Origin: a virus
DNA: 64,000 nt
IMG/VR virus record: IMGVR_UViG_3300042945_002173
Strand: one strand, 5' to 3'
The notes under the pieces were generated by a model, which saw nothing but the letters and a program-made list of their open reading frames with translations, searched no databases and was not told the origin of the DNA. This document shows, piece by piece, positions 17,011-63,862 of the stretch. Within the stretch, counting starts at the first letter, position 1. Every line of letters starts with the position of its first letter. The position numbers and the translations under genes are program-made.

Positions 17011-18768
17011 ATGAGTTGGTCTAACGATTATAAAAAATCAATAGACTGTGGAAATCCAAAAGGATTTTCGCAAAAGGCACATTGTGCTGCTCGTAGGAAA
17101 AGAAAAAGAGGTGAAGAAACCAAGTCTAAATCACCATTTAGCGAACAAAAAGAAATGAGCGAAACCCGTTACTGTAAGTTGTGTAGGAAAATAGAGCAAA
17201 GGGATGGATGCTCCTATGGACCTTTAATGTGGGATAGATATTCTACGCCGATTCTTACCATGAATCAGATTAAATATGATCGAAACCGACCTCATCCTGC
17301 CAATGAGTCAAAAGATCATGAATATTCAATGGCTCGCTCAGAGTTATCAACCATTGCGAAGGCGACTAAAAAACTTCAGAAAAAAATGAAGAAAGGTGAG
17401 GGTGAGATTGAAGCATGGGTTCAATCAAAGATTACAAAAGCAGCAGACTATATTGATACGGCAGCAGATTATGTAGATAGTGGTGAAATGAATAAAGAAG
17501 AAGTTGAAATATTAGAAGGTAAGAGAGACGGGAAATCAGCAAAAGATAAAGATTATTCTCTTCGTGATTGGTTTAAAGGTGGTGGATGGGTTCAAGCAGG
17601 TGGTAAGTATGATGGAAAACCTTGTGCTAAACAACCTGGACAAAAAACAAAACCATTCTGCCGCGATGCTGACGATAGAGCATCAATGAGTAAGGAAGAA
17701 AGAAATAAAAGAGCAGCAAAAAAACGTAAAGAAGACCCAAATCCAAATAGAAAAGGAAAGGCAAAGTTTGTAACTGTTGAACAAGTTGATGCCAGTAAGT
17801 ATGGAAAAACCCCAGATCAGATCTTACAGGATATTATAGATAAAGATAAAAAAGGACCAAACAAATACGGTGGTGGACAAGTAATTAAAACTGGTTTACA
17901 AAAAGCACATTTTGAACCAGAAGGTGAACAACTAGATGAACTGTGGGGTAAAGTTGCTATCGGTGCAGGTGCTGCCTTTATTCCATATCTTTTAAAAAAG
18001 TTCGCAAAACCAGCAGTTGATAAAGCAATTGATTCTCCTGCAACTGGTTCTGATGATTTGATTGATAAAATGAAGCAAAAAAGAGATGCTATTAATAAAG
18101 CAACTCAAAAAAATTCTTATGAACCAGAAGGTGATATGGTAGAAGAAAAAGACGCTTGTTATAAGAAGGTAAAGGCAAGGTATGATGTTTGGCCAAGTGC
18201 ATATGCTTCTGGCGCACTAGTCAAGTGCCGCAAAGTTGGTGCAAAAAATTGGGGAAATAAAACTAAAAAAGAAGGATATGAATTTTCTAATTGGAGAGAT
18301 GAATTCTTCCCAACAGAAGTTGAATCTGTAAATATTATTGAACCACAACCATTACAACCATCAAAGGGTATTGGAAGTGAAATTTTAGATGAGGCAGGTA
18401 AAAAGTGCTGGAAAGGTTACAAAAAATCAGGAACACAAGAACTGTTTGGTAAAACTTACAACCGTTGTGTAAAGGAAGGATATTCTGATTGGAGAACAGA
18501 GATTTCCGAAGATTGGCAATCAGTAAATCGTAAAGATAAAACTGATGGTCTAAGTCAAGCAGCAGTTGATGCTTATCGTCGTGAGAATCCAGGTTCAAAA
18601 CTTCAAACTGCGGTAACTGAAAAGAAACCAAAAGGAAAGAGAGCAAAGCGTCGTGCTAATTTCTGCCGACGTATGAAAGGGATGAAATCAAAACTCACAT
18701 CATCAAAAACAGCAAGAGATCCAGATTCAAGAATTAACAAAGCATTACGCCGTTGGAGGTGCAGATAA
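17011..18768 (+). CDS. modular basic protein, putative protease-processed internal-head polyprotein
   Basis: About 9 short Lys/Arg-rich modules, several with Cys pairs, separated by acidic linkers ending [LIV]xE. ORF is certain; function is inferred. Confidence 0.6.
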   Translation: MSWSNDYKKSIDCGNPKGFSQKAHCAARRKRKRGEETKSKSPFSEQKEMSETRYCKLCRKIEQRDGCSYGPLMWDRYSTPILTMNQIKYDRNRPHPANESKDHEYSMARSELSTIAKATKKLQKKMKKGEGEIEAWVQSKITKAADYIDTAADYVDSGEMNKEEVEILEGKRDGKSAKDKDYSLRDWFKGGGWVQAGGKYDGKPCAKQPGQKTKPFCRDADDRASMSKEERNKRAAKKRKEDPNPNRKGKAKFVTVEQVDASKYGKTPDQILQDIIDKDKKGPNKYGGGQVIKTGLQKAHFEPEGEQLDELWGKVAIGAGAAFIPYLLKKFAKPAVDKAIDSPATGSDDLIDKMKQKRDAINKATQKNSYEPEGDMVEEKDACYKKVKARYDVWPSAYASGALVKCRKVGAKNWGNKTKKEGYEFSNWRDEFFPTEVESVNIIEPQPLQPSKGIGSEILDEAGKKCWKGYKKSGTQELFGKTYNRCVKEGYSDWRTEISEDWQSVNRKDKTDGLSQAAVDAYRRENPGSKLQTAVTEKKPKGKRAKRRANFCRRMKGMKSKLTSSKTARDPDSRINKALRRWRCR

Positions 18769-19076
18769 TGAAAAGTTTTCAGCAGTTTATTTCAGAAAGT
18801 ATCACCATCAATGGTGATTTTAATGGAACTCTCAATGTAGGTTCCCCTCAACCCGAACAAGCAAGCGAGTCTTTCTTTGCTGATGTAGTTTGGGAAGGAA
18901 AGATGTATCGTTTAGAAGTAGAAGGCAAAATTCTTTCTAAGAATGAACTAGCAGAGCAAATTCAAGGAGAATATCCTGGTGCAATTGTTCATAACGTTTA
19001 TCCAAGTCAGGTAAATACTTCAAGAATTAAAAACGCACAAAGGTATCAACCAGAAAGATTGTCTTGGAGTGAGTGA
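18768..19076 (+). CDS. hypothetical protein with capsid-targeting-like N-terminus (MKSFQQFISE)
   Basis: ATG overlaps the upstream TAA (TAATG); N-terminus resembles the T4 internal-protein CTS. Confidence 0.7.
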   Translation: MKSFQQFISESITINGDFNGTLNVGSPQPEQASESFFADVVWEGKMYRLEVEGKILSKNELAEQIQGEYPGAIVHNVYPSQVNTSRIKNAQRYQPERLSWSE

Positions 19077-27451: not shown

Positions 27452-28102
27452 ATGAAACTCATCACAGAAGAAATTTCAAAAGTAGAATTTATTACCGAAG
27501 GTAAAGGATCTGCAAAAAAATCCTATATCAAAGGTATTTTCTTGCAGGCAGAACAAGTCAACAGAAATGGCAGAATGTATCCTCTTTCTATTATGGAAAG
27601 AGAGGTAAATCGCTATAATGAAGCATTTGTTCAAAAAGGTCGTGCTCTTGGAGAACTCGGTCACCCTGATGGACCTACCGTAAATCTTGATAGAGTTTCA
27701 CATAAAATTTGTGAACTTTATAAAGATGGTAATAATTTTATTGGTAAGGCACAACTTTTAGAAACTCCAATGGGTAAGATTGCAAAATCTCTCATTAGTG
27801 AGGGAGTTTGCCTTGGCGTTTCTTCTCGTGGTGTTGGTTCATTAAAGATGACCAATGAGGGTCATAAAGTTGTTGGTGAAGATTTTATGTTAGCAACTGC
27901 TGCTGATATCGTTGCCGACCCTTCTGCTCCTGACGCTTTTGTTCAGGGAATTATGGAAGGTAAAGAGTGGGTTTGGGAAGGTGGAATTCTTCGTGAAAGA
28001 CTTGCCGAGCAAACTCAAAAGAGAATTAATACTCTCGTAGATCAAAAAAGACTTGAAGAGCATAAGTTGAATTTATTCAACGATTTCCTCTCAAATCTTT
28101 AA
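27452..28102 (+). CDS. g21: prohead protease gp21
   Basis: NRNGRMYP, ALGELGHP, GVSSRGVGS, DIVADPSAPDA motifs. Confidence 0.97.
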   Translation: MKLITEEISKVEFITEGKGSAKKSYIKGIFLQAEQVNRNGRMYPLSIMEREVNRYNEAFVQKGRALGELGHPDGPTVNLDRVSHKICELYKDGNNFIGKAQLLETPMGKIAKSLISEGVCLGVSSRGVGSLKMTNEGHKVVGEDFMLATAADIVADPSAPDAFVQGIMEGKEWVWEGGILRERLAEQTQKRINTLVDQKRLEEHKLNLFNDFLSNL

Positions 28103-29277: not shown

Positions 29278-30675
29278 ATGCAAATGTTCAATGCCGAGCA
29301 TCTGCAGGAGAAGTGGGCACCAATCCTCGACTATGATGGTCTTGATCCAATCAAAGATTCACATCGTAGAGCGGTAACCGCAATCCTGCTTGAAAACCAA
29401 GAAAGAGAACTTCGTGAAGAGAGAGCATTCCTCTCCGAAGCTCCAACCGTAAACACCAACAGTGGCGCTAATGCAGGTTTCTCTGCTGGTGCTTCTGCCC
29501 CTGTTGCTGGTTTCGACCCTGTTCTGATCTCCCTGATTAGACGTTCAATGCCTAACCTGGTCGCTTATGACCTCGCTGGCGTTCAACCAATGAACGGTCC
29601 TACTGGACTGATCTTCGCAATGCGCTCTAAGTACACCAACATGAGCGGCACCGAAGCACTGTTCAACGAAGCAGATACTGCATTCTCTGGACAGGACAGC
29701 GGATTCAACCTCACCAACGGATTTACCGCAGGTAACGTTGGTATGGGTACAACCACTCAGCGTGGAACCAATCCTGGTCTTCTGGATGCTACCTATCCTG
29801 CAACCGGTGACGCAACTACCTACAACGTAGGTCAGGGTATGCGTACCGATGATGCAGAGAATCTTGGTCAGACCAGTGGCGACCACTTTAACGAGATGGC
29901 ATTCTCGATCGAGAAAGTCACCGTTACTGCTAAGTCACGTGCTCTGAAAGCTGAGTACTCGCTCGAACTCGCACAAGACCTGAAGGCAATTCACGGTCTG
30001 AATGCAGAAGCTGAGCTTGCTAACATCCTCAGCACTGAGATCCTCGCTGAAATCAACCGCGAAGTTATCCGTACCATCTATAACGTTGCTGAGTCTGGTG
30101 CTCAGGCAAACGTTGCTACCGCTGGTACTTTCGACCTCGACGTTGACTCCAACGGTCGTTGGTCAGTTGAGAAGTTCAAGGGTCTGATCTTCCAGATCGA
30201 GCGTGACGCAAACGCTATCGCCCAGAGAACTCGTCGTGGCAAGGGTAACATGATCCTCTGCTCTGCTGACGTTGCTTCGGCACTCACCATGGCAGGTGTT
30301 CTTGATTACACCCCTGCACTCAACGCTAACCTCAACGTTGATGACACTGGTAACACCTTCGCTGGTGTTCTGCAAGGTAAGTATCGTGTTTATATCGATC
30401 CTTATGCTGCAAACGTATCTGCTAACCAGTACTACGTTGTTGGTTATAAAGGTTCTTCTCCTTATGATGCTGGTCTGTTCTACTGCCCATATGTACCTCT
30501 CCAGATGGTACGTGCAGTTGGTCAGGACACCTTCCAGCCTAAGATCGGCTTCAAGACTCGTTATGGAATTGTTGCTAACCCATTCTCGCAGGGTACTAGC
30601 GCAATCAGCGGTGCTGGTCTTGATCGTAACGCAAACCGTTACTACAGAAGAGTCAAGGTTACCAATTTAATGTGA
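29278..30675 (+). CDS. g23: major capsid protein gp23
   Basis: GVQPMNGPTGLIFAMR, SRALKAEYSLELAQDLKAIHGL, FQPKIGFKTRYG. Confidence 0.99.
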   Translation: MQMFNAEHLQEKWAPILDYDGLDPIKDSHRRAVTAILLENQERELREERAFLSEAPTVNTNSGANAGFSAGASAPVAGFDPVLISLIRRSMPNLVAYDLAGVQPMNGPTGLIFAMRSKYTNMSGTEALFNEADTAFSGQDSGFNLTNGFTAGNVGMGTTTQRGTNPGLLDATYPATGDATTYNVGQGMRTDDAENLGQTSGDHFNEMAFSIEKVTVTAKSRALKAEYSLELAQDLKAIHGLNAEAELANILSTEILAEINREVIRTIYNVAESGAQANVATAGTFDLDVDSNGRWSVEKFKGLIFQIERDANAIAQRTRRGKGNMILCSADVASALTMAGVLDYTPALNANLNVDDTGNTFAGVLQGKYRVYIDPYAANVSANQYYVVGYKGSSPYDAGLFYCPYVPLQMVRAVGQDTFQPKIGFKTRYGIVANPFSQGTSAISGAGLDRNANRYYRRVKVTNLM

Positions 30676-32341: not shown

Positions 32342-33028
32342 ATGAAAACTTTTAGAGAGTTTATATCAGAGGCGGGGGCAACTTCTACAAGATTGGGTAT
32401 AAGAACACAAGAAATTATTAACCGTTCTCGAAATACTCCAACAAGTTTGTCTGCACCATATACTTCTTCAAATCCAAGTCCACAAGAACTTGCAGATCGT
32501 CGAAGAGATTTTGGTAATTTAAAACCTGGACAAACTAGTTTAGATACATTACATAATTTATTCAATTACGCAAAACAAAGAGCACAAGGAATTTATCCAG
32601 AAACAAAACATTCGCAAAGAACAAGAGAGAATCCAATTAGAAGTAGACCAACTCCACCAAATGCAGTGAAGACTAGTAGTGGTTCACTCACAAGAACTTA
32701 TCAACCAGTTAGAAGCACTCAAAATCCTTTAACTCCTTCTGTTAGAGATGAAAGAAGAGCAGCAGCAGGATCATCTGGTCAAGGTTCAACACCAAAAGGT
32801 CCAAAACTTTATAGACAATCTGTAAGTGGCGTTTCTGTTGGCGATGATCCGTTTGCAGTTATAAAATCTGCTAGTACACAACCAAAACCACTCCCCAAAC
32901 CCAGAGGAACAAGAGGTGGTTCTTCATCATTACCAAATTTAGGACGTCCTGGAATTGGATTTAAAATGGATGTTGGACATAAACCAGGTGACAGATATGG
33001 AATAAGTGGTATTGGTCTTGCAGACTGA
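32342..33028 (+). CDS. basic low-complexity protein with CTS-like N-terminus (MKTFREFISE), putative internal head protein
   Basis: N-terminal motif; R/S/T/P-rich body; flanked by a late promoter and a terminator. Confidence 0.65.
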   Translation: MKTFREFISEAGATSTRLGIRTQEIINRSRNTPTSLSAPYTSSNPSPQELADRRRDFGNLKPGQTSLDTLHNLFNYAKQRAQGIYPETKHSQRTRENPIRSRPTPPNAVKTSSGSLTRTYQPVRSTQNPLTPSVRDERRAAAGSSGQGSTPKGPKLYRQSVSGVSVGDDPFAVIKSASTQPKPLPKPRGTRGGSSSLPNLGRPGIGFKMDVGHKPGDRYGISGIGLAD

Positions 33029-39435: not shown

Positions 39436-41418
39436 ATGAATAGTAAAGAATATAAAAATTTACAAGAAGCTTATAATTCAATCTATGAGGCTTTAACCGA
39501 TCAGGCAGAATTAGATAAACTTCGTAAGGCATCTGCACAAGCAACGATGGCAGGTCCTTCAAAAGAAGCACAAGCATTGATGAGTGATAGAACTAAAAGA
39601 ATGCTTGGTGCTGATAAGTTGCAAGCAGGCATTGCTGGACAGGAAAGAGTTCAGAGAATGATGAGCGGTACGCCAGAACCTACTTCTACACCAAAACCAA
39701 CTGCACCAACACCTACTAGTACAACTGCTCCTACCCCTAAACCTGCAACGACAGTTAAACCAGGAGATTTTGGTACAACAATGGGTCCTGGACCAACATT
39801 TAAGGGTGGACCAGTTCCTCCTCCAATTCAAAACAAAACTGTCATCAAATCACCTGTTCCTGATAGGAGTGCAGATTATCAGAGAGCTTGGGATAATCGT
39901 AATAATCCACTTGCTAAGGGGCAAATTAGAAATGCTTGGACTAAAATGAGCCCAGAAGAAAAGGCAGCAGCAAAAGAATGGGCAAAGACAAATAATAAAA
40001 ATTGGCAGGAAATGGGGCTTCCCGAACAGAGAGATACTTATGATCAAGTTCTACAAATTCTTTTAGATGAAGGATACTCTGAGCAAGAGTGTAATCAAAT
40101 AATGGTTCAACTTGTGAATGAGGCTGGTCTTGGGGATTTTGTTAAAGCAGTTCAGCAAAGAACTGGTATTGGCAAACCAGGTGTTGGTCCTGGTCAAGTT
40201 GCTAAGAATATTTTGAGAGCAGGAATATCCGATATTCTTGGAACTTCTATTGCAACTGGTTCTACCCCATCATCGGTAAGTGCTGCAAAACCAACTCCAA
40301 CAGTAACATCTTCACCAACGCCAGTTGTTAGAACTTCTACCAAACCTGTTAGAACTGCACCAAAAGGTGCAAATATAGCACCAGATCCTTGGAAACAACC
40401 ATCAACACCTAGAAGTTCTGCAAAACCATCTACGACTACTGCAAGAACTTCAACAACTCCAAAAGCTTTGACTGGTTCTCCAACACCAAGAGCATTATCT
40501 GGATCTCAAACTCGTGCTGCTCTTCCAAGTGGAACACGTGGAGGTGCATTGGTCAAAGGAACACCTGGTGGCGCTATAACTCCCACTGCCAAACCTGGTG
40601 CATTAGTAAAAGTTCAAAAACCTTCTACTCCAACCACAACAACAAGAGCATTACCTGGAACTAACGTCCGTGGACTACTTCCACAGGGAGTTAGAAATGT
40701 TCTGCCAGATCCTTGGAAGCAGGCAACTGATACTGCCTCTGGTGCTAGAAACTTATGGAATAGAGTTCAGCAAGCAGTTAAACCACAAGCACAATTAAAA
40801 CCATCACAGACAAATGTTCGTGGTTTGCTTCCAGCAGCAAAACCATCACCTCAAACTGCGGCAAAACCTGCAACTTCTGTAAGATCACAGCAGTTCCAAG
40901 ATGTCCAAAGATTAAACAAAATGATGAAAGGTGGTTTGATGGGAGAACTACCAAGCACTAAACCAGCATCAAAACCCGCACCTAAACCAACTGGCAATGT
41001 AGATAAGGTAGCACCCAAACCAGCAAAACCAAGTACAAAATTAAAACTTCCTCAGGGACCAGGATCTAACACTTTTGGAAATAGAAAGCAAGGATTCTCT
41101 ATTCCTGGTGGAAGATTGGGTGCTTTTGCCGCAGGTATTCAGGCATATAATACCGCAGATGCAACTCTTAAATCTTCACCTAAGTTACCAACAACTGCAA
41201 AAGATGTTAAAAAAGGTGAAACTTATTATGATCCTTCAACAAGAATAGGACCTTCTCAGAGATTTGCTCAAAGAGAAAAGGTTGGTCCAAAAATTGTTGG
41301 TCCAGGAAAAGTTGGGACTGAGGCACAATCTTTTGATAGAGCTTATAAATCTGCAAAACAAAAAGGTGGTATGGGATCTACGTTTACTTGGAAAGGTAAA
41401 TCTTATAAAGTTGAATGA
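39436..41418 (+). CDS. Pro/Thr/Lys-rich modular protein, putative internal head protein
   Basis: LQEAYNSIYE leader, degenerate YD.V...L.DEGY module, internal repeats (PDPWKQ x2, TNVRGLLP x2, GALVK x2). Confidence 0.6.
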   Translation: MNSKEYKNLQEAYNSIYEALTDQAELDKLRKASAQATMAGPSKEAQALMSDRTKRMLGADKLQAGIAGQERVQRMMSGTPEPTSTPKPTAPTPTSTTAPTPKPATTVKPGDFGTTMGPGPTFKGGPVPPPIQNKTVIKSPVPDRSADYQRAWDNRNNPLAKGQIRNAWTKMSPEEKAAAKEWAKTNNKNWQEMGLPEQRDTYDQVLQILLDEGYSEQECNQIMVQLVNEAGLGDFVKAVQQRTGIGKPGVGPGQVAKNILRAGISDILGTSIATGSTPSSVSAAKPTPTVTSSPTPVVRTSTKPVRTAPKGANIAPDPWKQPSTPRSSAKPSTTTARTSTTPKALTGSPTPRALSGSQTRAALPSGTRGGALVKGTPGGAITPTAKPGALVKVQKPSTPTTTTRALPGTNVRGLLPQGVRNVLPDPWKQATDTASGARNLWNRVQQAVKPQAQLKPSQTNVRGLLPAAKPSPQTAAKPATSVRSQQFQDVQRLNKMMKGGLMGELPSTKPASKPAPKPTGNVDKVAPKPAKPSTKLKLPQGPGSNTFGNRKQGFSIPGGRLGAFAAGIQAYNTADATLKSSPKLPTTAKDVKKGETYYDPSTRIGPSQRFAQREKVGPKIVGPGKVGTEAQSFDRAYKSAKQKGGMGSTFTWKGKSYKVE

Positions 41419-41420
41419 AC

Positions 41421-41428
41421 TATAAATA
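41421..41428 (+). promoter_or_regulatory. late promoter TATAAATA
   Basis: Exact consensus; implies the true start is ATG 41448. Confidence 0.8.
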
Positions 41429-41447
41429 TTTAAAAAGTATTCATAAA

Positions 41448-42092
41448 ATGGAAGCAAAACAAGTTAGAGATTTGATGGAGGCATATGCTTCCGTTTATAC
41501 ACAATCGGAAGAACAAGAAGTCCTTTCAGAAGATCTTCAAGGTGCAGTAGAATCGGGACTTAAAAAAGCTTCTGAGTTTATGAAGACTAATCCTGTTGGT
41601 AAAGCTGTTGGGGCAGTTATTGCTCCTGTTGGAAAGGGACGTGGCACTACAACTAAGGCAGAGCAAGAATCAAAAATTAAATCTAATAAGCAAGAAGATG
41701 TAGATCTATTTGATCTTGTAAAAGGTCATCTGATGGGTGAAGGTTTTGCTGATACCGAAGAAGCAGCACTTGTTATTATGGCAAATATGAGTGAAGATTG
41801 GAAGCAAAGTATCGTTGAGTCTATTGCTCGCGGATCTGCTCCAAATAGTCCAACTGGTACTATCGGTGGTGCTGCTAGTAGAGTTGCTGGTACTTTACTT
41901 CAAAGAGGTGCAGAACTTCTTAAAAAGAATATGCCACAGTCTGGTGGTGGTTATAGCACCAGACCTGGTGATGGTAAGCCTTATAAAGATGGTCCACTTT
42001 GGGGACCAGGTTCTTCTGATGCACCTGTAAGAAAACCAGCTCCCCAAAGAAAACCTCAGGGAGCACCTATGAGAGATGAACCACTTTGGTGA
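41448..42092 (+). CDS. MEAKQV-family modular protein (paralog 1)
   Basis: Leader MEAKQVRDLMEAYASVY plus DLFD..HL..EGFAD..IMANMSEDWKQSIVE module. Confidence 0.7.
   Translation: MEAKQVRDLMEAYASVYTQSEEQEVLSEDLQGAVESGLKKASEFMKTNPVGKAVGAVIAPVGKGRGTTTKAEQESKIKSNKQEDVDLFDLVKGHLMGEGFADTEEAALVIMANMSEDWKQSIVESIARGSAPNSPTGTIGGAASRVAGTLLQRGAELLKKNMPQSGGGYSTRPGDGKPYKDGPLWGPGSSDAPVRKPAPQRKPQGAPMRDEPLW
41763..41819 (+). repeat. 57-bp direct repeat copy 1 (54/57 identical to 42743-42799)
   Basis: gcagcacttgttattatggcaaatatgagtgaagattggaagcaaagtatcgttgag. Confidence 0.9.
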
Positions 42093-42114
42093 TTAATTTC
42101 TTATAAAACCACTT

Positions 42115-42138
42115 GGAGGTCTTACGACCTCCTTTTTT
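42115..42138 (+). terminator. rho-independent terminator
   Basis: GGAGGTC-TTAC-GACCTCC plus T6. Confidence 0.85.
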
Positions 42139-42146
42139 AATAAATA
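42139..42146 (+). promoter_or_regulatory. late promoter AATAAATA
   Basis: Between the terminator and ATG 42167. Confidence 0.7.
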
Positions 42147-42166
42147 AATAAAAAACTATTCGTAAA

Positions 42167-42958
42167 ATGGAAGCAAAACAAGTTAAAGGTCTGATGGAAG
42201 CATATGCTTCTGTCTATGCAAATATTTCAGAATCCCACTTTAAAGTTGGTGATGAAGTTATTTGCAAAGCAAGTGGAATGGAAGGTGAAGTTATTAAACT
42301 TGACAAACCTGATGGTGAAGATGATGAAAAGTACTATACCGTAAAGCGTGAAGACGGTAAGACAATGAAGTATGCGCCGAATGATTTAAAGCTTGCTAAA
42401 AAAGAGAAAGAAGAAAAAGAAGAGAAGGAAGATGTAAAAGAAGCAAAGAATGGTGGAATAAGTGGTTCTTCTGAAACAAAATTCCATAAAAAGTTGGACA
42501 GTTTAGTTCATCATACCTTTGGTAAGAGAAAAGAAGAAAAGGCAATGAAGGAAGAAACTGATGAAGGTGGAAAGCACAAAGAAGGTAAGCATTCTAAGGG
42601 TAAAGAAGAACCTGGTGAAAAGGTAACTGAGAAAGAAGGAAAAGAAAAAGAAAAAGAAGAAAAGGAAATGAAAGAGAGTGCCGATCTCTTTGATTACATT
42701 CTTGAGCACCTAGTTGCCGAAGGTTATGCTGACACCAATAAGGCAGCACTTGCTATTATGGCAAATATGAGTGAAGAGTGGAAGCAAAGTATTGTTGAGC
42801 AGAGTGCTATTGCACAAAGAACTGCATCTGCTGTTGATGATCAAAGAAGAGGTTCTTATGGTATGGCAGATGACCTCAATAAAACTAGAAAGTCTTTGGA
42901 TAAACTAAAGCCTTATCCAAATGGATTTCCTAATGCCGCTGGTGTAAAAGGAGTCTGA
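42167..42958 (+). CDS. MEAKQV-family modular protein (paralog 2)
   Basis: Leader MEAKQVKGLMEAYASVY, KOW/SH3-like FKVGDEV..G.EGEV segment, K/E-rich linker, HLVAEGYAD..MSEEWKQSIVE module. Confidence 0.7.
   Translation: MEAKQVKGLMEAYASVYANISESHFKVGDEVICKASGMEGEVIKLDKPDGEDDEKYYTVKREDGKTMKYAPNDLKLAKKEKEEKEEKEDVKEAKNGGISGSSETKFHKKLDSLVHHTFGKRKEEKAMKEETDEGGKHKEGKHSKGKEEPGEKVTEKEGKEKEKEEKEMKESADLFDYILEHLVAEGYADTNKAALAIMANMSEEWKQSIVEQSAIAQRTASAVDDQRRGSYGMADDLNKTRKSLDKLKPYPNGFPNAAGVKGV
42743..42799 (+). repeat. 57-bp direct repeat copy 2
   Basis: gcagcacttgctattatggcaaatatgagtgaagagtggaagcaaagtattgttgag. Confidence 0.9.
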
Positions 42959-59057: not shown

Positions 59058-59139
59058 GCCCAAATGGCGGAATTGGTAGACGCGCTGGGTTTAGGTTCCA
59101 GTAGAGTATTCTGTGGAGGTTCAAGTCCTCTTTTGGGCA
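59058..59139 (+). tRNA. trnL: tRNA-Leu(TAG)
   Basis: Acceptor GCCCAAA/TTTGGGC, anticodon arm CTGGG-TTTAGGT-TCCAG, long variable arm, GGTTCAAGTCC; no encoded CCA. Confidence 0.93.
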
Positions 59140-59146
59140 CTAAATA
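59140..59146 (+). promoter_or_regulatory. late promoter CTAAATA
   Basis: Immediately after tRNA-Leu, 8 nt before ATG 59155. Confidence 0.55.
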
Positions 59147-59154
59147 TTTCAAAA

Positions 59155-60411
59155 ATGGCAAGTTCTGGTATATTAAACTTCCAGAGAAACTGGCAAGGAA
59201 GTGATCACCAAACTACTGTAAAAAAGACTGTTAGTGTGTTTACTAAGAACGATTCTGGTTCTTTTCAAGCAGCAGGTGCTTTATCACCAGGAACAGAGGT
59301 AACTTATATTGATTCACTAACTGAAAATCATTTAAGAGCAGCATTCAGAACTGCCGATGGTATTGTTTATTATGGAAATGTTGATTATTTTGTTAAACCA
59401 AATTCTTTTCAGGCGCAGGCAATAAGATTGACCCCATCGAGTTTCGGATTAGCAAATCAAACATTTTTTTCAAGTGTTGACTATTATAATAGTATAATTT
59501 CCGCATTAAATTCTAGGAATGATATTCCTGGTGAATTATTTGATTATCTTTATGAATTATTAGATTATGCCTATCAAGGTTATGGTAATTATAATGGTAT
59601 AAAAATGGATAATTTTCCTTGGGGTCCATTGCAAAATTCTTTTGGAGAAGTGATTGGGGCACTATCTTGTGCTAGAAACAGAGATGGTATATTGAGTGGA
59701 ATAGTAAATACTGCTGGTTTGGGTGGAGCATCGATTTATATAGCTCCTGAGAGTGGAACGCTATATGATTATAAATTAATAGTTGGTAATGATGAATATT
59801 TGATATCTGCTAAGTCTGCAAGAGGTGTTTCTAACCAGGTTAAACCTCAATTCGTTATTCCTTATATTACAGAATATAATTTAACTTCAACGACTGAGTA
59901 TAGAGTTCTTCAATCACTGGCAGATGAGAGGGGTAGAAAGTCCACCGTACACGGTCCTTTTTACACTTGGAGAATTATTCAAAGTAACAATGAGATAACT
60001 GATGCTTGTATTGCTGATATAAACGCAAATTATACAAGTGGACCACAATCAAATAAAAAGATATCTGATCCTTCTATTTGGCAGAATTTTGTGAATATAC
60101 ATATTCCTTCTAAAAAAAGTAAATCAAATATAAAAAATGTTACCTATGGTGAAATTAGATATCAATGCGAACAATCTATTGAAAGTTGGTCAAAGAGTGG
60201 AACACAAAATAGGGTCTTGAAAGAAATATTTGAAGTTTTTTTGAACAAATCTAGAGTAATCTATGCTAAACTGGATTTGAACAGGACAACTGGAAGACCA
60301 ACATTTACCGCTTCTGCTGGTGGTGGGACATCTTTGGTAAGAAACCTTTATTTAAGAACATCTAACTATGCGACAAGAACAGACGATAGAATTGGTTTTC
60401 AGGTAAGTTAA
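59155..60411 (+). CDS. hypothetical protein (possible nuclease-like domain)
   Basis: Track start 59113 lies inside tRNA-Leu, so ATG 59155 is preferred; GEVIG...YDY........ISAK motif. Confidence 0.65.
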   Translation: MASSGILNFQRNWQGSDHQTTVKKTVSVFTKNDSGSFQAAGALSPGTEVTYIDSLTENHLRAAFRTADGIVYYGNVDYFVKPNSFQAQAIRLTPSSFGLANQTFFSSVDYYNSIISALNSRNDIPGELFDYLYELLDYAYQGYGNYNGIKMDNFPWGPLQNSFGEVIGALSCARNRDGILSGIVNTAGLGGASIYIAPESGTLYDYKLIVGNDEYLISAKSARGVSNQVKPQFVIPYITEYNLTSTTEYRVLQSLADERGRKSTVHGPFYTWRIIQSNNEITDACIADINANYTSGPQSNKKISDPSIWQNFVNIHIPSKKSKSNIKNVTYGEIRYQCEQSIESWSKSGTQNRVLKEIFEVFLNKSRVIYAKLDLNRTTGRPTFTASAGGGTSLVRNLYLRTSNYATRTDDRIGFQVS

Positions 60412-60627
60412 ATGGATAAAAATATTCAAGGTTTTATCAAAGAGTTTAAAGGTAAAGAGTTTAAAGACTTTGTATTATTTGTATTTAAAAAAATGCAAAA
60501 AGATATTGATTTAAAAAAGAAAAAGCAGGATAAGGATAAATATATAAAGGTCAGACAAAATTTTTTAAATTATATTATTGCAAACGAAAAAGCAATAACT
60601 ATTGAACTCAATAAGAAATATAAGTAA
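60412..60627 (+). CDS. small Lys-rich hypothetical protein
   Basis: 71-aa ORF abutting both neighbours. Confidence 0.55.
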   Translation: MDKNIQGFIKEFKGKEFKDFVLFVFKKMQKDIDLKKKKQDKDKYIKVRQNFLNYIIANEKAITIELNKKYK

Positions 60628-61856
60628 TGAAAAGTTTTTTCCAATTTTTAACAGAAACAACTGCTTCCCAACAGGCAGCAAGACTTGGGTTGCAAGGTGA
60701 TGGGCACGGCGGATGGTATGATAGAAAAACGGGAGAGTTTGTCGCAAAGACTGAAAAAGGTAGGTTGAAGTTTTATAATAAGCGTCAAGGAATTGGTAAA
60801 GATCCTGCTCAGACAGAGACTGAAAAGAATATCTCAGATCCAAATTTTGTAGATCCCGTATTACAACAACAGCAAGCACCTGCTCCTCAACCAGTTGCTC
60901 AGGAAGCACCACCTGTAAATTTCCTTCCTGTTGAAAAGACAAAAGGAACATTAACGATTGCATTTGGTCGTTTCAATCCTCCACATCTGGGACATCTTCA
61001 ACTGATGGATACTGCTGCTGCATCGGCAGAGCAAGAAGGTAGTGACTATATGATTATTCCTTCTCGTACACAAGATAAGAAAAAGAATCCCCTTGATGCT
61101 GATACAAAAGTTGCATTGATGAGATCAATGTTCCCTCAGCATAGTGAGAGAATTGTAAATGATGCCAACACCAGAACTATTTTTGATGTTCTTAAAAAAG
61201 CACATAATGATGGATATACGAATGTGAGAATCGTTGGTGGTGCCGATAGAGTGAATGAATTTAACAAACTTGCCAATAATTACAATGGAAATCTTTATGC
61301 CTTTGATAATATTGAGGTAGTTTCTGCTGGTGACCGAGATCCAGACTCTGATGGTGTTGAAGGTCTTTCTGCATCCAGAATGCGTCTTGCTGCTGCTGAA
61401 GGTGATTTCAAAACATTTCGTTTAGGAATGCCACCAGATATGAGACCAAAAGATGCAAGAGCAGTTTTTGATACTGTTCGTGCTGCAATGGGCATTCAAG
61501 ATCAGGTTGCAGAAGTTTGGGAGATTGCACCTAAGTTTGATCAGGGTACTTTGCGCGAAAACTATGTTAGAGAAGCAATCTTTAAGATTGGGCAGTTGGT
61601 TGAGAATCTAAATACTGGTCTTATTGGACGCATTATACGTCGTGGAACTAATTACTTGATCTGTGTCACAGAAGACCATATTATGTTTAAGTCTTGGATT
61701 AAGGATGTGATGGAAGCAAAACTTACAAATAGAAGTGGTGTTCCTGCTGATCAAAGACTTGTTGGAACTGATGCATATCGTGAATATGTTGAGACGATGG
61801 TTCCTGGACGTACTTGGGGAAGACAATTCATAAATAAGTATAGAAAAAGTAAGTAA
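60627..61856 (+). CDS. cytidylyltransferase-like (HxGH) nucleotidyltransferase with CTS-like N-terminus
   Basis: FGRFNPPHLGH, KNPL, VGGADR, SASRMR motifs; starts MKSFFQFLTE. Confidence 0.85.
   Translation: MKSFFQFLTETTASQQAARLGLQGDGHGGWYDRKTGEFVAKTEKGRLKFYNKRQGIGKDPAQTETEKNISDPNFVDPVLQQQQAPAPQPVAQEAPPVNFLPVEKTKGTLTIAFGRFNPPHLGHLQLMDTAAASAEQEGSDYMIIPSRTQDKKKNPLDADTKVALMRSMFPQHSERIVNDANTRTIFDVLKKAHNDGYTNVRIVGGADRVNEFNKLANNYNGNLYAFDNIEVVSAGDRDPDSDGVEGLSASRMRLAAAEGDFKTFRLGMPPDMRPKDARAVFDTVRAAMGIQDQVAEVWEIAPKFDQGTLRENYVREAIFKIGQLVENLNTGLIGRIIRRGTNYLICVTEDHIMFKSWIKDVMEAKLTNRSGVPADQRLVGTDAYREYVETMVPGRTWGRQFINKYRKSK
61829..61836 (+). promoter_or_regulatory. late promoter CATAAATA
   Basis: 34 nt upstream of ATG 61871. 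Confidence 0.7.
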
Positions 61857-61870
61857 TCAATCTTTCCCCA

Positions 61871-63862
61871 ATGAGTAACAATATTTTTGAGGAACTTCCA
61901 TCCAGAAAAGGTGGTGAAGCAAAACCTGGTGCAGATGCTGCTGCTGGCATTGAAAAGAAGGCAAGACAGCTTGTTTATGATTCTCGTTATGAAGTTAAAA
62001 AAATGTTAGCAGGTAAAAGAGCGGATCCTGCATCGCAAGAAAGAATGGTTCTTGGAAGAATTGCTAAATCAACTGCAATTCCTGCTGTAAAGGCAAGAGC
62101 AAGACAAATGGTTTCTAAGAAAGCCGCTGTTGCGGAAGATTTTATTCCTATGATGGAAGATGCTGCTGCAATTAATATTGCAAATGCAATGTTTAAGGTT
62201 TTTGTTGAGGGTGTTGAAGAAATTGTTCCAGATTACTTAGAGGAACTGCACGGACTAGACGACAAGAAATATAAGATTAGAGTTACAGATCCTAAGACTG
62301 GAAACTCTTATGTCAGATATGGAACTCGTGAAAAAATCACTCAACTTAGATCAAAAGGTCTGAAAGTTGAACTCACCGAGTATGGTGAACCAAGAGAGGG
62401 AGAAAAAAAGAGAGGTGAAGAAACTGCACGTGCTACCGGTGGTGGACGCCCTGGTGGTAAAAAACCAAAACTAGATCCAGTTGGCAAGGAAGATAGTGAT
62501 CCAGACAATGATGGTAAGCATAATGATCCAAATGACAAGTACATTATGAAGCGTCGTGCTGCAATTGGTGCTGCCATTGAGAAGAGAAAGACAGTTTCTT
62601 CTTCTTATGAAATGGATGGGCAGATGATTGATGAGAGTGAAATTGGTGATAGAGCAAGAAGAGTTGTTCGTGATCAGCGTCAAGGAGTTCATGGTGATGC
62701 TGATGATATCAAACAAAATATGGATGCGATTAATCTAAATCTTTTGAAGATGAGACCATATGGAGTTAAAGGATTTCCATCTGTTAAAAAGGACACTAAA
62801 AAAACTACACAAGTTGCTCATTTTGAACCAGAGGGTAAATTAGTCGAATCTAAAAAATCTAAGAAGCATAAAAAAACATCCGAACCACGCTGGCAAGATA
62901 GTGATGGTGATGGTAAATGGTATGAACCTGGTGAAGATGTAAAAAAAGAAGATTATCTGTGGGCTGAAGGAACTGATAGTACAGAAGGTCAAGGTAAGAA
63001 AATAAATCCAACCAAAGTTGACAATTATTCTTCTGGTGTTGTTAAAATTTCTCCAGAAGATGGAACTCAAACTATTTCAACTGGACCAAAAGCAGTTTAT
63101 GCACATACTGAACTTGAAGGTGAACTGATTTCTGAAAAAGCAATGAGTAAAGCACAACAGCGTTTTATGGGAATGGTTTATGCCCGTAAAAAGGGTGAGA
63201 TGAAAAAAGGTGAGGCATCACCTGAGGTTGAAGCAGCAGCAAAAGGTATGACCAAGAAAGAAGCAAAGAAATTTGCTAAGACAAAGCACAAGGGTCTTCC
63301 TGAAAAGATTGAAGAATCTGGATATTTTCCATCTAAAGAGTCTCAGAGAGCAGATGAGAAAAAGTATGCATTAAGTCGTGATGGTATGCCAGGACAAGTA
63401 AAACACAGAACAGTCAAAAATCAGACTAAGGTTAATGAAGAGCAGTGCTCATCCGAAGACGAAAAGAAGAAGGACACTCGTGGCGATTATGCAAAGATTA
63501 ACTTGATCAAGAATAAGTTGAGGGCGATGGGTGCTAAGAATCCAATCGTAATGGTTGCTAATGAGAATGTTGAGGCAGGTCCAATTCTTCCTGGTGAAAA
63601 AGGTAAGAGAGTTTATCCAAAGGGCCAAGAACCAAAGGCAACTGGTGCAAAACTTCCCCCCCTTCAAAATGCTGGTTTTGAACCAACAGGTAATGTAATT
63701 TCTGAAAGAGATGATGAACCAGGTGAAGAGGATTGGAGACCAGATGTTCGTGCTCATAATAAAGCAGTAGGATATCGTGGTGGGTATAATAAGTATAGGG
63801 GAACTCGTAAACCAAAACCAGAAAATCCTGGACCTGGATCACAAGCTAAACCAGCAGATTGA
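61871..63862 (+). CDS. modular charged protein, putative protease-processed internal-head polyprotein
   Basis: Four [HSG][YFT]E.xGxx[LIV]xE linkers shared with the 17011 ORF; DPVGKED.D.DNDG, WQDSDGDG and SKAQQRFMGMV modules. Confidence 0.6.
   Translation: MSNNIFEELPSRKGGEAKPGADAAAGIEKKARQLVYDSRYEVKKMLAGKRADPASQERMVLGRIAKSTAIPAVKARARQMVSKKAAVAEDFIPMMEDAAAINIANAMFKVFVEGVEEIVPDYLEELHGLDDKKYKIRVTDPKTGNSYVRYGTREKITQLRSKGLKVELTEYGEPREGEKKRGEETARATGGGRPGGKKPKLDPVGKEDSDPDNDGKHNDPNDKYIMKRRAAIGAAIEKRKTVSSSYEMDGQMIDESEIGDRARRVVRDQRQGVHGDADDIKQNMDAINLNLLKMRPYGVKGFPSVKKDTKKTTQVAHFEPEGKLVESKKSKKHKKTSEPRWQDSDGDGKWYEPGEDVKKEDYLWAEGTDSTEGQGKKINPTKVDNYSSGVVKISPEDGTQTISTGPKAVYAHTELEGELISEKAMSKAQQRFMGMVYARKKGEMKKGEASPEVEAAAKGMTKKEAKKFAKTKHKGLPEKIEESGYFPSKESQRADEKKYALSRDGMPGQVKHRTVKNQTKVNEEQCSSEDEKKKDTRGDYAKINLIKNKLRAMGAKNPIVMVANENVEAGPILPGEKGKRVYPKGQEPKATGAKLPPLQNAGFEPTGNVISERDDEPGEEDWRPDVRAHNKAVGYRGGYNKYRGTRKPKPENPGPGSQAKPAD

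What the first reader, a model, noticed from the sequence alone, without database searches (positions are those of the whole stretch)
61871..63862. Second polyprotein about 45 kb away shares the same 12-residue linker
Seen: linkers SSYEMDGQMIDE (62600-62635), AHFEPEGKLVES (62816-62851), AHTELEGELISE (63101-63136) and AGFEPTGNVISE (63671-63706) align with AHFEPEGEQLDE (17905-17940) and NSYEPEGDMVEE (18112-18147) in an otherwise unrelated protein. DNA similarity is also visible (gcacattttgaaccagaaggt vs gctcattttgaaccagagggt). Cargo between the linkers differs: EF-hand-like DPVGKEDSDPDNDG, WQDSDGDGKWYE, and a KAMSKAQQRFMGMV..KTKHKGLPEK module. Inference: the linker is a portable scaffold-binding/protease-recognition signal and possibly a recombination handle for module shuffling.
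Basis: partly seen in the sequence, partly recalled or inferred. Interest (0 to 1): 0.78.

Follow-up and report, generated by a model that had tools for sequence, protein, structure and literature searches.

The report
Shared linker in cyanophage virion polyproteins
Two otherwise unrelated late proteins of a T4-like cyanophage are chains of small modules joined by one conserved 12-16-residue peptide that ends in the cutting signal of the phage's own head protease, so they are probably loaded into the capsid and cut into small proteins, though no cut has been measured.

Summary
All six linkers are at the stated coordinates. A profile built from other phages scores them 12-26 bits, against 2.9 for anything else in the window, and 2,000 shuffles gave one hit. 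The consensus is [VILQ]-x-[AS]-[SHG]-[YFT]-E-[PL]-[ED]-G-x-Φ-[LIV]-x-E. Its last residues fit the T4 gp21 rule (L/I-x-Glu): P3 is always L/I/V and P1 is Glu and never Asp, while other acidic positions mix D and E.

The phage encodes a gp21-type protease and three genes with T4-like capsid-targeting N-termini. All four linkers of the 663-aa protein lie in predicted disordered stretches. Relatives of both proteins are reported in virions.

Modules reassort across the linker, which occurs in at least four protein architectures, almost always in T4-like cyanophage contexts. Some modules are free-standing small genes in the non-T4-like phages checked.

Classic marine isolates lack the linker, and cleavage and packaging are unproven.

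The "recombination handle" idea gets mixed support. In this genome the DNA identity is no more than shared amino acids predict, but family-wide the EPEG core shows unexplained synonymous-codon conservation.

This scan has reported the same kind of polyprotein before, on this genome and on other DNA.

The parts
61871..63862 (+). Protein A, 663 aa: constant N-terminal region (aa 1-243) followed by variable modules joined by four linkers
   Evidence: ORF. There are 1,991 homologues, and the N-terminal region is present in 120/120 of the best. PHROG patchwork.
61871..61891 (+). N-terminal heptapeptide MSNNIFE with Ile5-x-Glu7; a possible short Alt-like propeptide
   Evidence: M1, I5 and E7 are nearly invariant in 50 homologues down to 50% identity. 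P-SSM2 has MSKNIVE. The review gives a 7-residue propeptide for T4 Alt.
62471..62515 (+). LDPVGKEDSDPDNDG, a conserved DxDxDG calcium-loop-like module (aa 201-215)
   Evidence: Nearly invariant columns. Some homologues carry a precomputed dockerin hit, PF00404. Also present in S-SCSM1 ORF92 and P-SSM2_195.
62600..62635 (+). Linker 1, SSYEMDGQMIDE (aa 244-255; P1 Glu255)
   Evidence: 20.5 bits. pLDDT below 50 at 242-257.
62816..62851 (+). Linker 2, AHFEPEGKLVES (aa 316-327; L-V-E, P1 Glu326, one residue shorter)
   Evidence: 12.2 bits. pLDDT below 50 at 296-344.
62891..62926 (+). WQDSDGDGKWYE module (aa 341-352)
   Evidence: Related RWWDDDGDGxGYEKGE repeats occur in L025 and L057.
63101..63136 (+). 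Linker 3, AHTELEGELISE (aa 411-422), immediately before DUF3008
   Evidence: 23.3 bits. E414, G417 and E422 are invariant in 50 homologues.
63140..63307 (+). DUF3008 module (aa 424-479), starting two residues after the P1 Glu of linker 3
   Evidence: PF11450, 30.2 bits against a cut-off of 24, profile 1-56. Three PHROG profiles begin at their position 3 here.
63671..63706 (+). Linker 4, AGFEPTGNVISE (aa 601-612)
   Evidence: 18.3 bits. pLDDT below 50 at 560-619.
17011..18768 (+). Protein B, 585 aa, T4-GC119 / phrog_727 family, between g16 and g17; DUF6321 at its C-terminus
17905..17940 (+). Linker B1, AHFEPEGEQLDE (aa 299-310)
   Evidence: 26.3 bits.
17941..18111 (+). Module B2, with a hydrophobic start (LWGKVAIGAGAAFIPYLL...), bounded by a linker on each side; the same cassette sits in A-family proteins of other phages
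   Evidence: P0058, P0059.
18112..18147 (+). Linker B2, NSYEPEGDMVEE (aa 368-379)
   Evidence: 19.4 bits.
18148..18255 (+). Cys module KDACYKKVKARYDVWPSAYASGALVKCRK..., starting at P1' of linker B2; a free-standing 56-aa gene in Roseobacter phage CRP-902
   Evidence: (H81).
27452..28102 (+). gp21 homologue, T4-type prohead serine protease; the only protease identified among the ORFs I scanned
   Evidence: PF03420 Peptidase_S77, E 1.2e-39. Aligns to the T4 gp21 structure 5jbl, E 4e-27.
29428..29439 (+). FLSE|A in the gp23 propeptide, the likely maturation site of the major capsid protein
   Evidence: Inferred by analogy with T4.
60627..61856 (+). Cytidylyltransferase/NMNAT-like gene directly upstream of A, starting MKSFFQFLTE (T4 CTS-like)
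   Evidence: Homologues were detected in virions of S-SCSM1, S-SM1, S-CREM2 and others.
18768..19076 (+). 102-aa gene directly downstream of B, starting MKSFQQFISE (CTS-like)
   Evidence: The S-SRM01 orthologue starts MKSFKQFISE.
32342..33028 (+). 228-aa gene starting MKTFREFISE (CTS-like)

Best explanation
Protein A, like protein B, is a late, virion-associated modular protein of a T4-like cyanophage. It has a constant N-terminal part followed by small, mostly basic modules drawn from a pool shared by several phage gene families.

The modules are joined by a conserved, intrinsically disordered 12-16-residue junction peptide. Its C-terminal five residues (E/Q-Φ-[LIV]-x-E) copy the processing end of the T4 capsid-targeting sequence and fit the L/I-x-Glu rule of the T4-type prohead protease gp21, which this phage encodes at 27452-28102.

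The most likely mechanism is this. The proteins are built into the prohead core. When gp21 is activated it cuts after the invariant Glu of each linker. That releases pieces of about 28, 8, 11, 21 and 6 kDa from A and about 35, 7.5 and 24 kDa from B. These pieces stay with the DNA or leave the head.

The N-terminal half of the linker ([AS][SHG][YF]-E-P-E-G) is conserved beyond what the protease rule needs. It probably forms an exposed turn or a docking element for the scaffold core or the protease.

Shown here:
- the motif, its statistics and its conservation pattern;
- predicted disorder at the sites;
- module reassortment at the linker;
- presence of the protease gene.

Taken from papers and record annotations, not tested here: detection of relatives in virions.

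Inferred: location in the head, cleavage, the identity of the protease, and any docking role.
For: 1. Motif real and specific. The six sites score 12-26 bits against 2.9 for the rest of the window. Shuffles gave 1 hit in 2,000. In the complete 240-kb genome of the closest isolate, S-SRM01, hits of 10 bits or more occur only in the orthologues of A (two) and B (one).

2. Signature of a Glu-specific protease site. With each position left free in turn:
- P3 is L/I/V in 75/75;
- P1 is Glu in 75/83 and Asp in 0;
- Gly is 75/75;
- the other acidic positions mix D and E (60 E/15 D; P2 is mostly D).
The T4 literature gives L/I-X-E, and says Asp at P1 blocks processing.

3. The cognate enzyme and system are present. 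There is an S77 protease homologous to T4 gp21. The gp22 and gp23 genes are present, with FLSE|A in the gp23 propeptide. Three ORFs start with MK[ST]F..F[IL].E, close to the T4 CTS. One of them is the NMNAT-like gene next to A, whose homologues are repeatedly found in cyanophage virions.

4. Virion association of relatives. S-SCSM1 ORF92 has the same position after tRNA-Ala/ORF90/NMNAT and shares a module with A. It is a mass-spectrometry 'virion protein'. The S-P4 homologue of B is annotated as a structural protein, T4-GC119.

5. Accessibility. All four A linkers fall in stretches with pLDDT below 50, between the better-predicted segments.

6. Module boundaries coincide with P1'.
- DUF3008 and three PHROG profiles start 1-2 residues after Glu422.
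- The Cys module starts at P1' of linker B2 and is a free-standing 56-aa gene in CRP-902.
- DUF6321 is a free-standing 84-92-aa gene in the T7-like P-SCSP1k and in HTVC027P. Neither phage has the linker in the 32-40 kb I read.

7. Both 100%-complete IMG/VR records tested that carry the linker also carry the S77 protease.
Against: - No experimental cleavage or N-terminal data exist for any member. Published cyanophage proteomes used trypsin-specific searches.
- P1' is mostly Lys/Arg (45 of 81), not the Ala/Ser/Thr found after this phage's CTS-like peptides and its likely gp23 site.
- L/I/V-x-E is a weak three-residue rule that occurs by chance in Glu-rich proteins. A has five further L/I-x-E sites outside the linkers.
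- The strongly conserved N-terminal half, including a second strictly Glu position and an invariant Gly, is not explained by the protease rule.
- Orthologues in classic marine isolates (P-SSM2, S-RIM8, S-SSM5, S-P4, S-SCSM1) lack the linker. Their junctions often do not fit Φ-x-E. So cutting at these places cannot be essential to the families.
- A and B lack a T4-type CTS, so how they would enter the prohead is unknown.
- Three homologues end only four residues after a linker, where a cut would serve little purpose.
- Virion mass spectrometry does not say that the proteins are inside the head.
Confidence: 0.55

Rival explanations
1. The linker is an uncleaved short linear motif. It would be a disordered peptide that docks the modular proteins to a partner (scaffold gp22, the inner capsid surface, the portal or DNA), and the Φ-[LIV]-x-E ending would be part of the binding surface. 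The proteins would then stay whole in the virion.
For: Conservation covers 12-16 residues, far more than gp21 needs, with an invariant Gly and a second strict Glu. The sites are predicted disordered, as is typical of linear motifs. Some proteins end four residues after a linker. In T4, targeting and processing are separable functions of the CTS.
Against: A strict Glu that is never Asp at the last position, together with L/I/V exactly two residues before it, is the processing rule rather than a generic binding feature. Module N-termini in free-standing genes coincide with P1'. Binding and cleavage are not mutually exclusive.
Confidence: 0.2
2. The linker is a small structural or ion-binding element, for example a beta-hairpin with a P-E-G turn or an acidic metal site. 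It would cap or space the modules, with no role as a signal.
For: The shape [VIL]-x-A-S-Y-E / P-E-G / E-Φ-L-x-E could form a hairpin. The proteins also carry DxDxDG calcium-type loops.
Against: AlphaFold2 gives no confident structure at any of the four sites. Pro is replaced by L/M/V/I/A in about half of the versions. This reading does not explain strict Glu over Asp at two positions, or the restriction to phages with a T4-type head.
Confidence: 0.08
3. The linker is cut, but by a different Glu-specific protease, either host-encoded or another phage enzyme, or outside the capsid. That would release the modules in the cytoplasm or after injection.
For: P1' Lys/Arg differs from the likely gp21 sites of this phage. 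Nothing shows that A and B are inside the head.
Against: gp21 is the only protease found among the roughly 30 window ORFs scanned against Pfam; not every ORF was scanned. The linker is found almost only in T4-like cyanophage contexts. Relatives are virion proteins.
Confidence: 0.07
4. The repeat is primarily a DNA-level element: a microhomology or recombination scar (GAACCAGAAGGT) left by or used for cassette exchange. The peptide would be a passenger.
For: Modules reassort exactly at the linker. The EPEG core uses GAA CCA GAA GGT far more than codon usage predicts: the majority codon is CCA in 19/20 and GGT in 19/21 context classes.
Against: The amino-acid pattern is conserved through many nucleotide versions (69 distinct 48-nt versions) and through Pro to L/M/V and Y to F/T changes. 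The most constrained protein positions, P3 and P1, show background codon usage. In the window the longest A-B DNA match, 14 nt, is no longer than synonymous shuffles give.
Confidence: 0.03

Closest known systems
T4 internal proteins IPI/IPII/IPIII and Alt: capsid-targeting sequence plus gp21 processing (Mullaney and Black 1996; review PMC9026906)
   Same: Non-essential, variable, mostly basic cargo proteins of a T4-type head. There is a short acidic/hydrophobic signal ending Φ-[IL]-x-Glu that the S77 prohead protease cuts. The last five linker residues (E-L-I-S-E, E-V-L-T-E) resemble E-F-I-A-E of the T4 CTS. A's conserved MSNNIFE resembles the 7-residue Alt propeptide. Neighbouring genes in the window carry near-canonical CTS decapeptides.
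   Different: The signal is internal and repeated (1-4 per protein), not N-terminal. It is longer, with a conserved [AS][SH][YF]EPEG half that has no T4 counterpart. It joins several unrelated modules in one polypeptide. P1' is Lys/Arg. No packaging or cleavage has been shown.
Multi-site processing of head and inner-body proteins in giant phages phiKZ, 201phi2-1 and SPN3US (S/A-X-E; reviewed in PMC9026906, PMC5694885)
   Same: Many head proteins are cut at several Glu-ending sites by a gp21-related protease. The fragments stay with the DNA.
   Different: Those sites have almost no determinants beyond three residues and are not a recurring portable cassette. The proteins are not mosaics of shuffled mini-modules. 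The phage lineage and host are different.
Polyvalent proteins of phages and conjugative elements (Iyer et al. 2017, PMC5512222)
   Same: Many unrelated domains sit in one late-expressed polypeptide. They are proposed to be packaged, delivered with the DNA and cut into units. Architectures are mosaic and rapidly shuffled.
   Different: Polyvalent proteins carry enzymatic effector domains and an embedded peptidase (MPTase). A and B have no Pfam peptidase or enzyme domain, and their modules are 40-200 residues of unknown function. Processing would be in trans by the prohead protease at a repeated linker.
T4-GC119 / phrog_727 and T4-GC191-type cyanophage proteins (Sullivan et al. 2010, PMC3037559)
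   Same: B is a member of T4-GC119. A is the positional and N-terminal homologue of P-SSM2 ORF195, which follows the cytidylyltransferase T4-GC190.
   Different: The published marine members I read lack the linker. The families are annotated only as hypothetical or structural, and no linker, modularity or processing is described in the papers I could search.

Membership tests
Substrate of T4-type prohead protease gp21 (Peptidase S77) | Leu/Ile at P3 and Glu at P1 (L/I-X-E, cut after Glu) | tested here: met
   P3 is L/I/V in 75/75 and P1 is Glu in 75/83 when each is left free. All six window sites fit, one with Val at P3. The rule is taken from PMC9026906.
Substrate of T4-type prohead protease gp21 (Peptidase S77) | Asp is not accepted at P1 | tested here: met
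   No Asp at P1 among 83 and 190 distinct versions, while neighbouring acidic positions mix D and E. This is an evolutionary signature, not an assay.
Substrate of T4-type prohead protease gp21 (Peptidase S77) | Cognate protease encoded by the same phage | tested here: met
   Window 27452-28102: PF03420, E 1.2e-39. Aligns to T4 gp21 5jbl, E 4e-27. Also present in both complete linker-bearing IMG/VR records.
Substrate of T4-type prohead protease gp21 (Peptidase S77) | Mature fragments that start at P1' in virions, depending on gp21 | not testable with these tools
   No peptide-level data are available. The published proteomes used tryptic searches.
Substrate of T4-type prohead protease gp21 (Peptidase S77) | Protein present in the prohead or head | tested here: inconclusive
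   S-SCSM1 ORF92 (syntenic, one shared module) is a virion protein by MS. The S-P4 homologue of B is annotated structural. There are no data for A or B themselves, and none on location within the virion.
T4 CTS-bearing internal proteins | N-terminal decapeptide of type MKTYQEFIAE (aromatic at 4 and 7, I/L at 8, E at 10) | tested here: not met
   A starts MSNNIFEE and B starts MSWSNDYKKS. The pattern is met by three other window genes, at 18768, 32342 and 60627.
Polyvalent proteins (Iyer et al. 2017) | Embedded peptidase (MPTase) and enzymatic effector domains | tested here: not met
   The only Pfam hits at E up to 0.01 are DUF3008 in A and DUF6321 in B.
DUF3008 (PF11450) | Score above the Pfam gathering threshold | tested here: met
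   A aa 424-479: 30.2 bits against a cut-off of 24, full profile length.
T4-GC119 / phrog_727 (protein B) | Full-length profile match and position beside g16 | tested here: met
phrog_727, E 8e-92, over aa 108-584. The gene lies between g16 and g17.
EF-hand / dockerin-type calcium loop | DxDxDG loop recognised by a curated model | tested here: inconclusive
   The sequence DSDPDNDG is present and nearly invariant. Pfam dockerin hits are on record only for some homologues, not for A itself.

The most novel reading that the evidence does not exclude
The linker is a two-level plug-and-play junction used across a very large pool of cyanophage late genes. As a peptide it is both the address and the cutting site that lets any module placed behind it be loaded into the capsid and released. 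As DNA, its conserved 12-nt core (GAACCAGAAGGT) is the microhomology at which modules are swapped between at least four gene families. Together these would give T4-like cyanophages a dedicated system for shuffling injected cargo.
Probability: 0.15. Interest if true: 0.85.

Novelty: new variant of a known kind. Interest (0 to 1): 0.6.

Why it matters
T4-like cyanophages are among the most abundant viruses in oceans and lakes. The two families here have thousands of metagenomic members, yet are annotated only as hypothetical. If the linker is a targeting and cleavage signal, these phages deliver a changing set of small proteins with their DNA, and the rule would let such cargo be predicted from sequence alone.

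It would also extend the T4 capsid-targeting and processing paradigm from single N-terminal tags to internal, repeated, exchangeable junctions. It could also offer a ready-made cleavable linker for packaging foreign proteins into T4-type heads.

The unexplained synonymous-codon conservation in the linker core also makes the idea of recombination at protein-module junctions directly testable.

Tried and rejected
- Sequence search of A and B against PDB chains: nothing useful.
- Fold search of the AlphaFold2 model of A (mean pLDDT 52). The helical segment 14-84 reaches only Z up to 6.4 against unrelated helical proteins. BFVD returns only uncharacterised cyanophage proteins. So the constant N-terminal region stays unassigned.
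- Literature searches for DUF3008, DUF6321, DUF5661, and 'capsid targeting sequence' with cyanophage: no paper describes the linker or processing of these proteins.
- Supplement search of Sullivan et al. 2010 for T4-GC119 and GC191 in the S-SM1 virion table: nothing retrievable.
- BLAST HSP starts are not enriched near linkers. Only HSP ends are, about 12% within 10 residues after P1 against about 3% expected. I therefore relied on the anchored-flank analysis instead.
- A possible linker at the very N-terminus of an ORF (L103): the start codon is uncertain, and two similar cases are cut by contig ends, so it is not used.
- The idea that A and B share more than the linker in this genome: rejected by BLASTP.
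- The idea that the window's DNA identity at the linker exceeds what the protein requires: rejected.
- No whole genome is held for the window, so I scanned the S-SRM01 genome instead.
Full report
**What the window is.** All long ORFs lie on the + strand at about 33-44% G+C. They include, in T4 order:
- neck protein gp14, sheath stabiliser gp15, small terminase gp16 and large terminase gp17;
- portal gp20, a Peptidase_S77 prohead protease (gp21), scaffold gp22 and major capsid protein gp23.

tblastn places it among cyanomyoviruses. The freshwater Synechococcus phage S-SRM01 is the nearest isolate.

**The observation.**
- Protein A (61871-63862, 663 aa) and protein B (17011-18768, 585 aa) are real ORFs.
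- A loose pattern finds them only in A and B in all six frames of the window.
- I built a 16-column profile from 147 distinct linker versions found in metagenomic homologues, leaving out near-identical relatives. It scores the six sites 12.2-26.3 bits, and the next best hit in the window scores 2.9.
- One of 2,000 shuffled copies of A or B gave a hit of 8 bits or more.
- BLASTP of A against B aligns nothing but the linkers.

**Anatomy of the linker.**
- Among the 120 best homologues of A, 108 carry 1-4 copies. Among those of B, 74 carry 1-3.
- With only the core fixed, the free columns are still conserved, which extends the motif to [VILQ]-x-[AS]-[SHG]-[YFT]-E-[PLMV]-[ED]-G-x-Φ-[LIV]-x-E-[KR].
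- Leaving one position free at a time gives: Gly 75/75; L/I/V 75/75 at the third-last position; Glu 75/83 with no Asp at the last position; Glu 75/79 with no Asp after the aromatic residue. The other acidic positions mix Asp and Glu freely.

The published rule for T4 gp21 is cleavage after Glu in L/I-X-E. In the T4 capsid-targeting sequence, residues 8 and 10 govern processing, residues 4 and 7 govern targeting, and Asp at position 10 blocks processing (PMC9026906). The last five linker residues (E-L-I-S-E, E-Q-L-D-E) therefore look like the processing end of a CTS (E-F-I-A-E; the T4 sequence is from my own memory).

**Context that makes the protease reading plausible.**
- The phage's gp21 aligns to the T4 gp21 structure 5jbl at E 4e-27. 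It has His and Ser at two columns where the crystallised chain has Ala. I take those to be the engineered active-site changes, from memory and unverified.
- gp23 has FLSE|A in its propeptide.
- Three window ORFs begin MKTFREFISE, MKSFQQFISE and MKSFFQFLTE. The last is the cytidylyltransferase/NMNAT-like gene immediately upstream of A. Homologues of that enzyme have been found by mass spectrometry in virions of S-SM1, S-SCSM1, S-CREM2 and others.
- In S-SCSM1 the gene order tRNA-Ala / ORF90 / NMNAT / ORF92 matches the window, and all three proteins are MS-detected virion proteins. ORF92 shares the DxDxDG module with A.
- The S-P4 homologue of B is annotated as a structural protein, T4-GC119.
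- A's own first seven residues, MSNNIFE, have nearly invariant Ile5 and Glu7. This recalls the 7-residue propeptide of T4 Alt.

**Structure.** An AlphaFold2 model of A from a 50-sequence alignment is poor overall (mean pLDDT 52). It does separate better-predicted pieces (21-84, 130-175, 210-240, the DUF3008 helices at 425-470, and 536-552) from low-confidence stretches. All four linkers lie in stretches below pLDDT 50. Cutting at the linkers would give pieces of 28, 8, 10.6, 21 and 5.7 kDa from A and 35, 7.5 and 24 kDa from B, most with pI above 9.

**Do module borders coincide with the predicted cut?**
- DUF3008 begins two residues after Glu422, and three PHROG profiles start at their position 3 there.
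- The Cys-containing module of B begins at P1' of its second linker. It is a free-standing 56-aa gene in Roseobacter phage CRP-902.
- DUF6321, B's last module, is a free-standing 84-aa gene just after the capsid gene of the T7-like Prochlorococcus phage P-SCSP1k, and a 92-aa gene in pelagiphage HTVC027P. Both end like B, and neither phage has the linker in the 32-40 kb I read.

**Portability.** I anchored 271 distinct linker sites and compared 40-residue flanks. In 3,053 pairs both flanks are homologous; in 3,084 pairs only one flank is. So modules reassort across the linker.

Whole cassettes have moved between the two families:
- B's hydrophobic module, with a linker on each side, sits in the A-family proteins P0058 and P0059 (79% identity).
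- A's module 564-600, with its linker, sits in the B-family protein P0177.

A degenerate DNA pattern for YEPEGE-x-[LIMF]-DE carries about 45 bits by my estimate, so no chance hits are expected. In those stretches:
- 121 ORFs carry 188 sites: 65 A-type, 32 B-type, 8 with A modules, and 16 with other architectures.
- The other architectures include a homologue of the window's own 39436 gene with three linkers, although the window copy has none.
- They also include proteins that share a 97-residue module at 53% identity with the MS-verified S-SCSM1 ORF92.
- PHROG hits of these proteins form the same patchwork that A and B hit.
- One hundred of the 120 loci carry other T4-like cyanophage genes.
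- The two complete records I tested have the S77 protease.

In the complete S-SRM01 genome the linker is confined to the orthologues of A and B.

**Limits.**
- The orthologues in the marine isolates P-SSM2, S-RIM8, S-SSM5, S-P4 and S-SCSM1 lack the linker, and their junctions are only loosely acidic.
- P1' is mostly Lys or Arg, unlike the Ala/Ser/Thr after the phage's CTS-like peptides.
- The N-terminal half of the linker is not explained by the protease rule.
- Nothing shows that A or B is in the head or is cut.

**The DNA question.**
- In the window, identical amino acids in different linker copies share the same codon more often than codon usage predicts (58 of 76 pairs against 39 expected). 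The copies are not independent, however.
- The longest exact match between the two genes, 14 nt, is what synonymous shuffles give.
- Across 88 sites from IMG/VR (69 distinct DNA versions, 21 flank contexts), the E-P-E-G core is written GAA CCA GAA GGT far more often than the codon usage of the same ORFs predicts. This holds after allowing for the neighbouring codon: CCA 92% against 55%, GGT 90% against 66%, GAA 90% against 71%.
- The majority codon per context class is CCA in 19/20, GGT in 19/21 and GAA in 21/21. The two later Glu columns sit at background.

This is a real and unexplained signal. It fits microhomology-guided exchange, inheritance of copied linkers, or a translational effect.

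**Verdict.** The linker is a genuine, conserved, portable junction peptide of a large mosaic family of cyanophage late or virion proteins. The best reading is a gp21 cleavage signal, perhaps also a docking signal, that turns A and B into head-loaded polyproteins (about 55%). An uncleaved docking motif is the main rival.

Other agents of this scan reached the same general reading for B on this genome and for similar proteins on other DNA. I treated those notes as leads only.
- the strict-Glu statistics;
- the whole-genome restriction of the linker in S-SRM01;
- the cross-family cassettes;
- free-standing modules in the non-T4-like phages checked;
- absence of the linker from classic marine isolates;
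- the codon-level signal.

In the papers I could search, neither the linker nor processing of these proteins is described. The nearest concepts are T4 CTS/IP processing, multi-site processing in phiKZ-like phages, and polyvalent proteins.

Noticed in passing
window 18768-18797, 32342-32371, 60627-60656: Three ORFs begin with near-copies of the T4 capsid-targeting decapeptide: MKSFQQFISE, MKTFREFISE and MKSFFQFLTE. S-SRM01 has four such ORFs, and P-SSM2's cytidylyltransferase starts MKSFSQFLTE.
   Followed up: partly
window 18271-18303 and 18475-18507 (B aa 421-431, 489-499); also A aa 620-626: A second recurrent junction peptide, EG[FY]-S-[ND]-W-R-x-[DE] (KEGYEFSNWRDE, EGYSDWRTEISE). It also occurs in S-SCSM1 ORF92 and in many IMG/VR proteins (L020, L025, L032, L057, L078). 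It may be another portable linker.
   Followed up: no
IMG/VR loci L010-L129 (linker sites): Synonymous-codon conservation of the linker core (GAA CCA GAA GGT) beyond codon usage and neighbour context. The later Glu codons are at background.
   Followed up: partly
window 17941-18003: The module after B's first linker starts with a 17-residue hydrophobic run (WGKVAIGAGAAFIPYLL), which looks like a membrane-active or transmembrane helix. Similar Gly/Ala-rich hydrophobic modules follow linkers in L025, L051, L078 and L112.
   Followed up: no
window 59058-59140 and 59113-60411: The listed GTG start of the 432-aa ORF lies inside tRNA-Leu. The real start is probably the ATG 14 codons downstream (MASSG...). 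Its positional counterpart in S-SCSM1 (ORF90, after tRNA-Ala) is an MS-detected virion protein.
   Followed up: no
window 39436-42958: Three ORFs share an N-terminal leader (MNSKEYKNLQEAYNSIYE, MEAKQV..LMEAYASVY). A homologue in IMG/VR locus L112 carries three YEPEG linkers, although the window copies carry none.
   Followed up: partly
P0044, P0052, P0080 (A-family homologues): These proteins stop four residues after a linker (...AHFEPKGNVISEREFD*), as if the last module had been lost.
   Followed up: no
L131-L134, L001, L002 (P-SSM2, S-RIM8, S-SSM5, S-SCSM1, S-P4): The cultured marine cyanomyoviruses I read lack the YEPEG linker in the orthologous genes. The freshwater isolate S-SRM01 and many metagenomic phages have it, so it may mark particular clades.
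   Followed up: partly
supplement of PMC3037559 (Aeromonas phage Aeh1 ORF081): An Aeh1 protein starts MKSLADFLAE, another CTS-like N-terminus outside the cyanophages.
   Followed up: no
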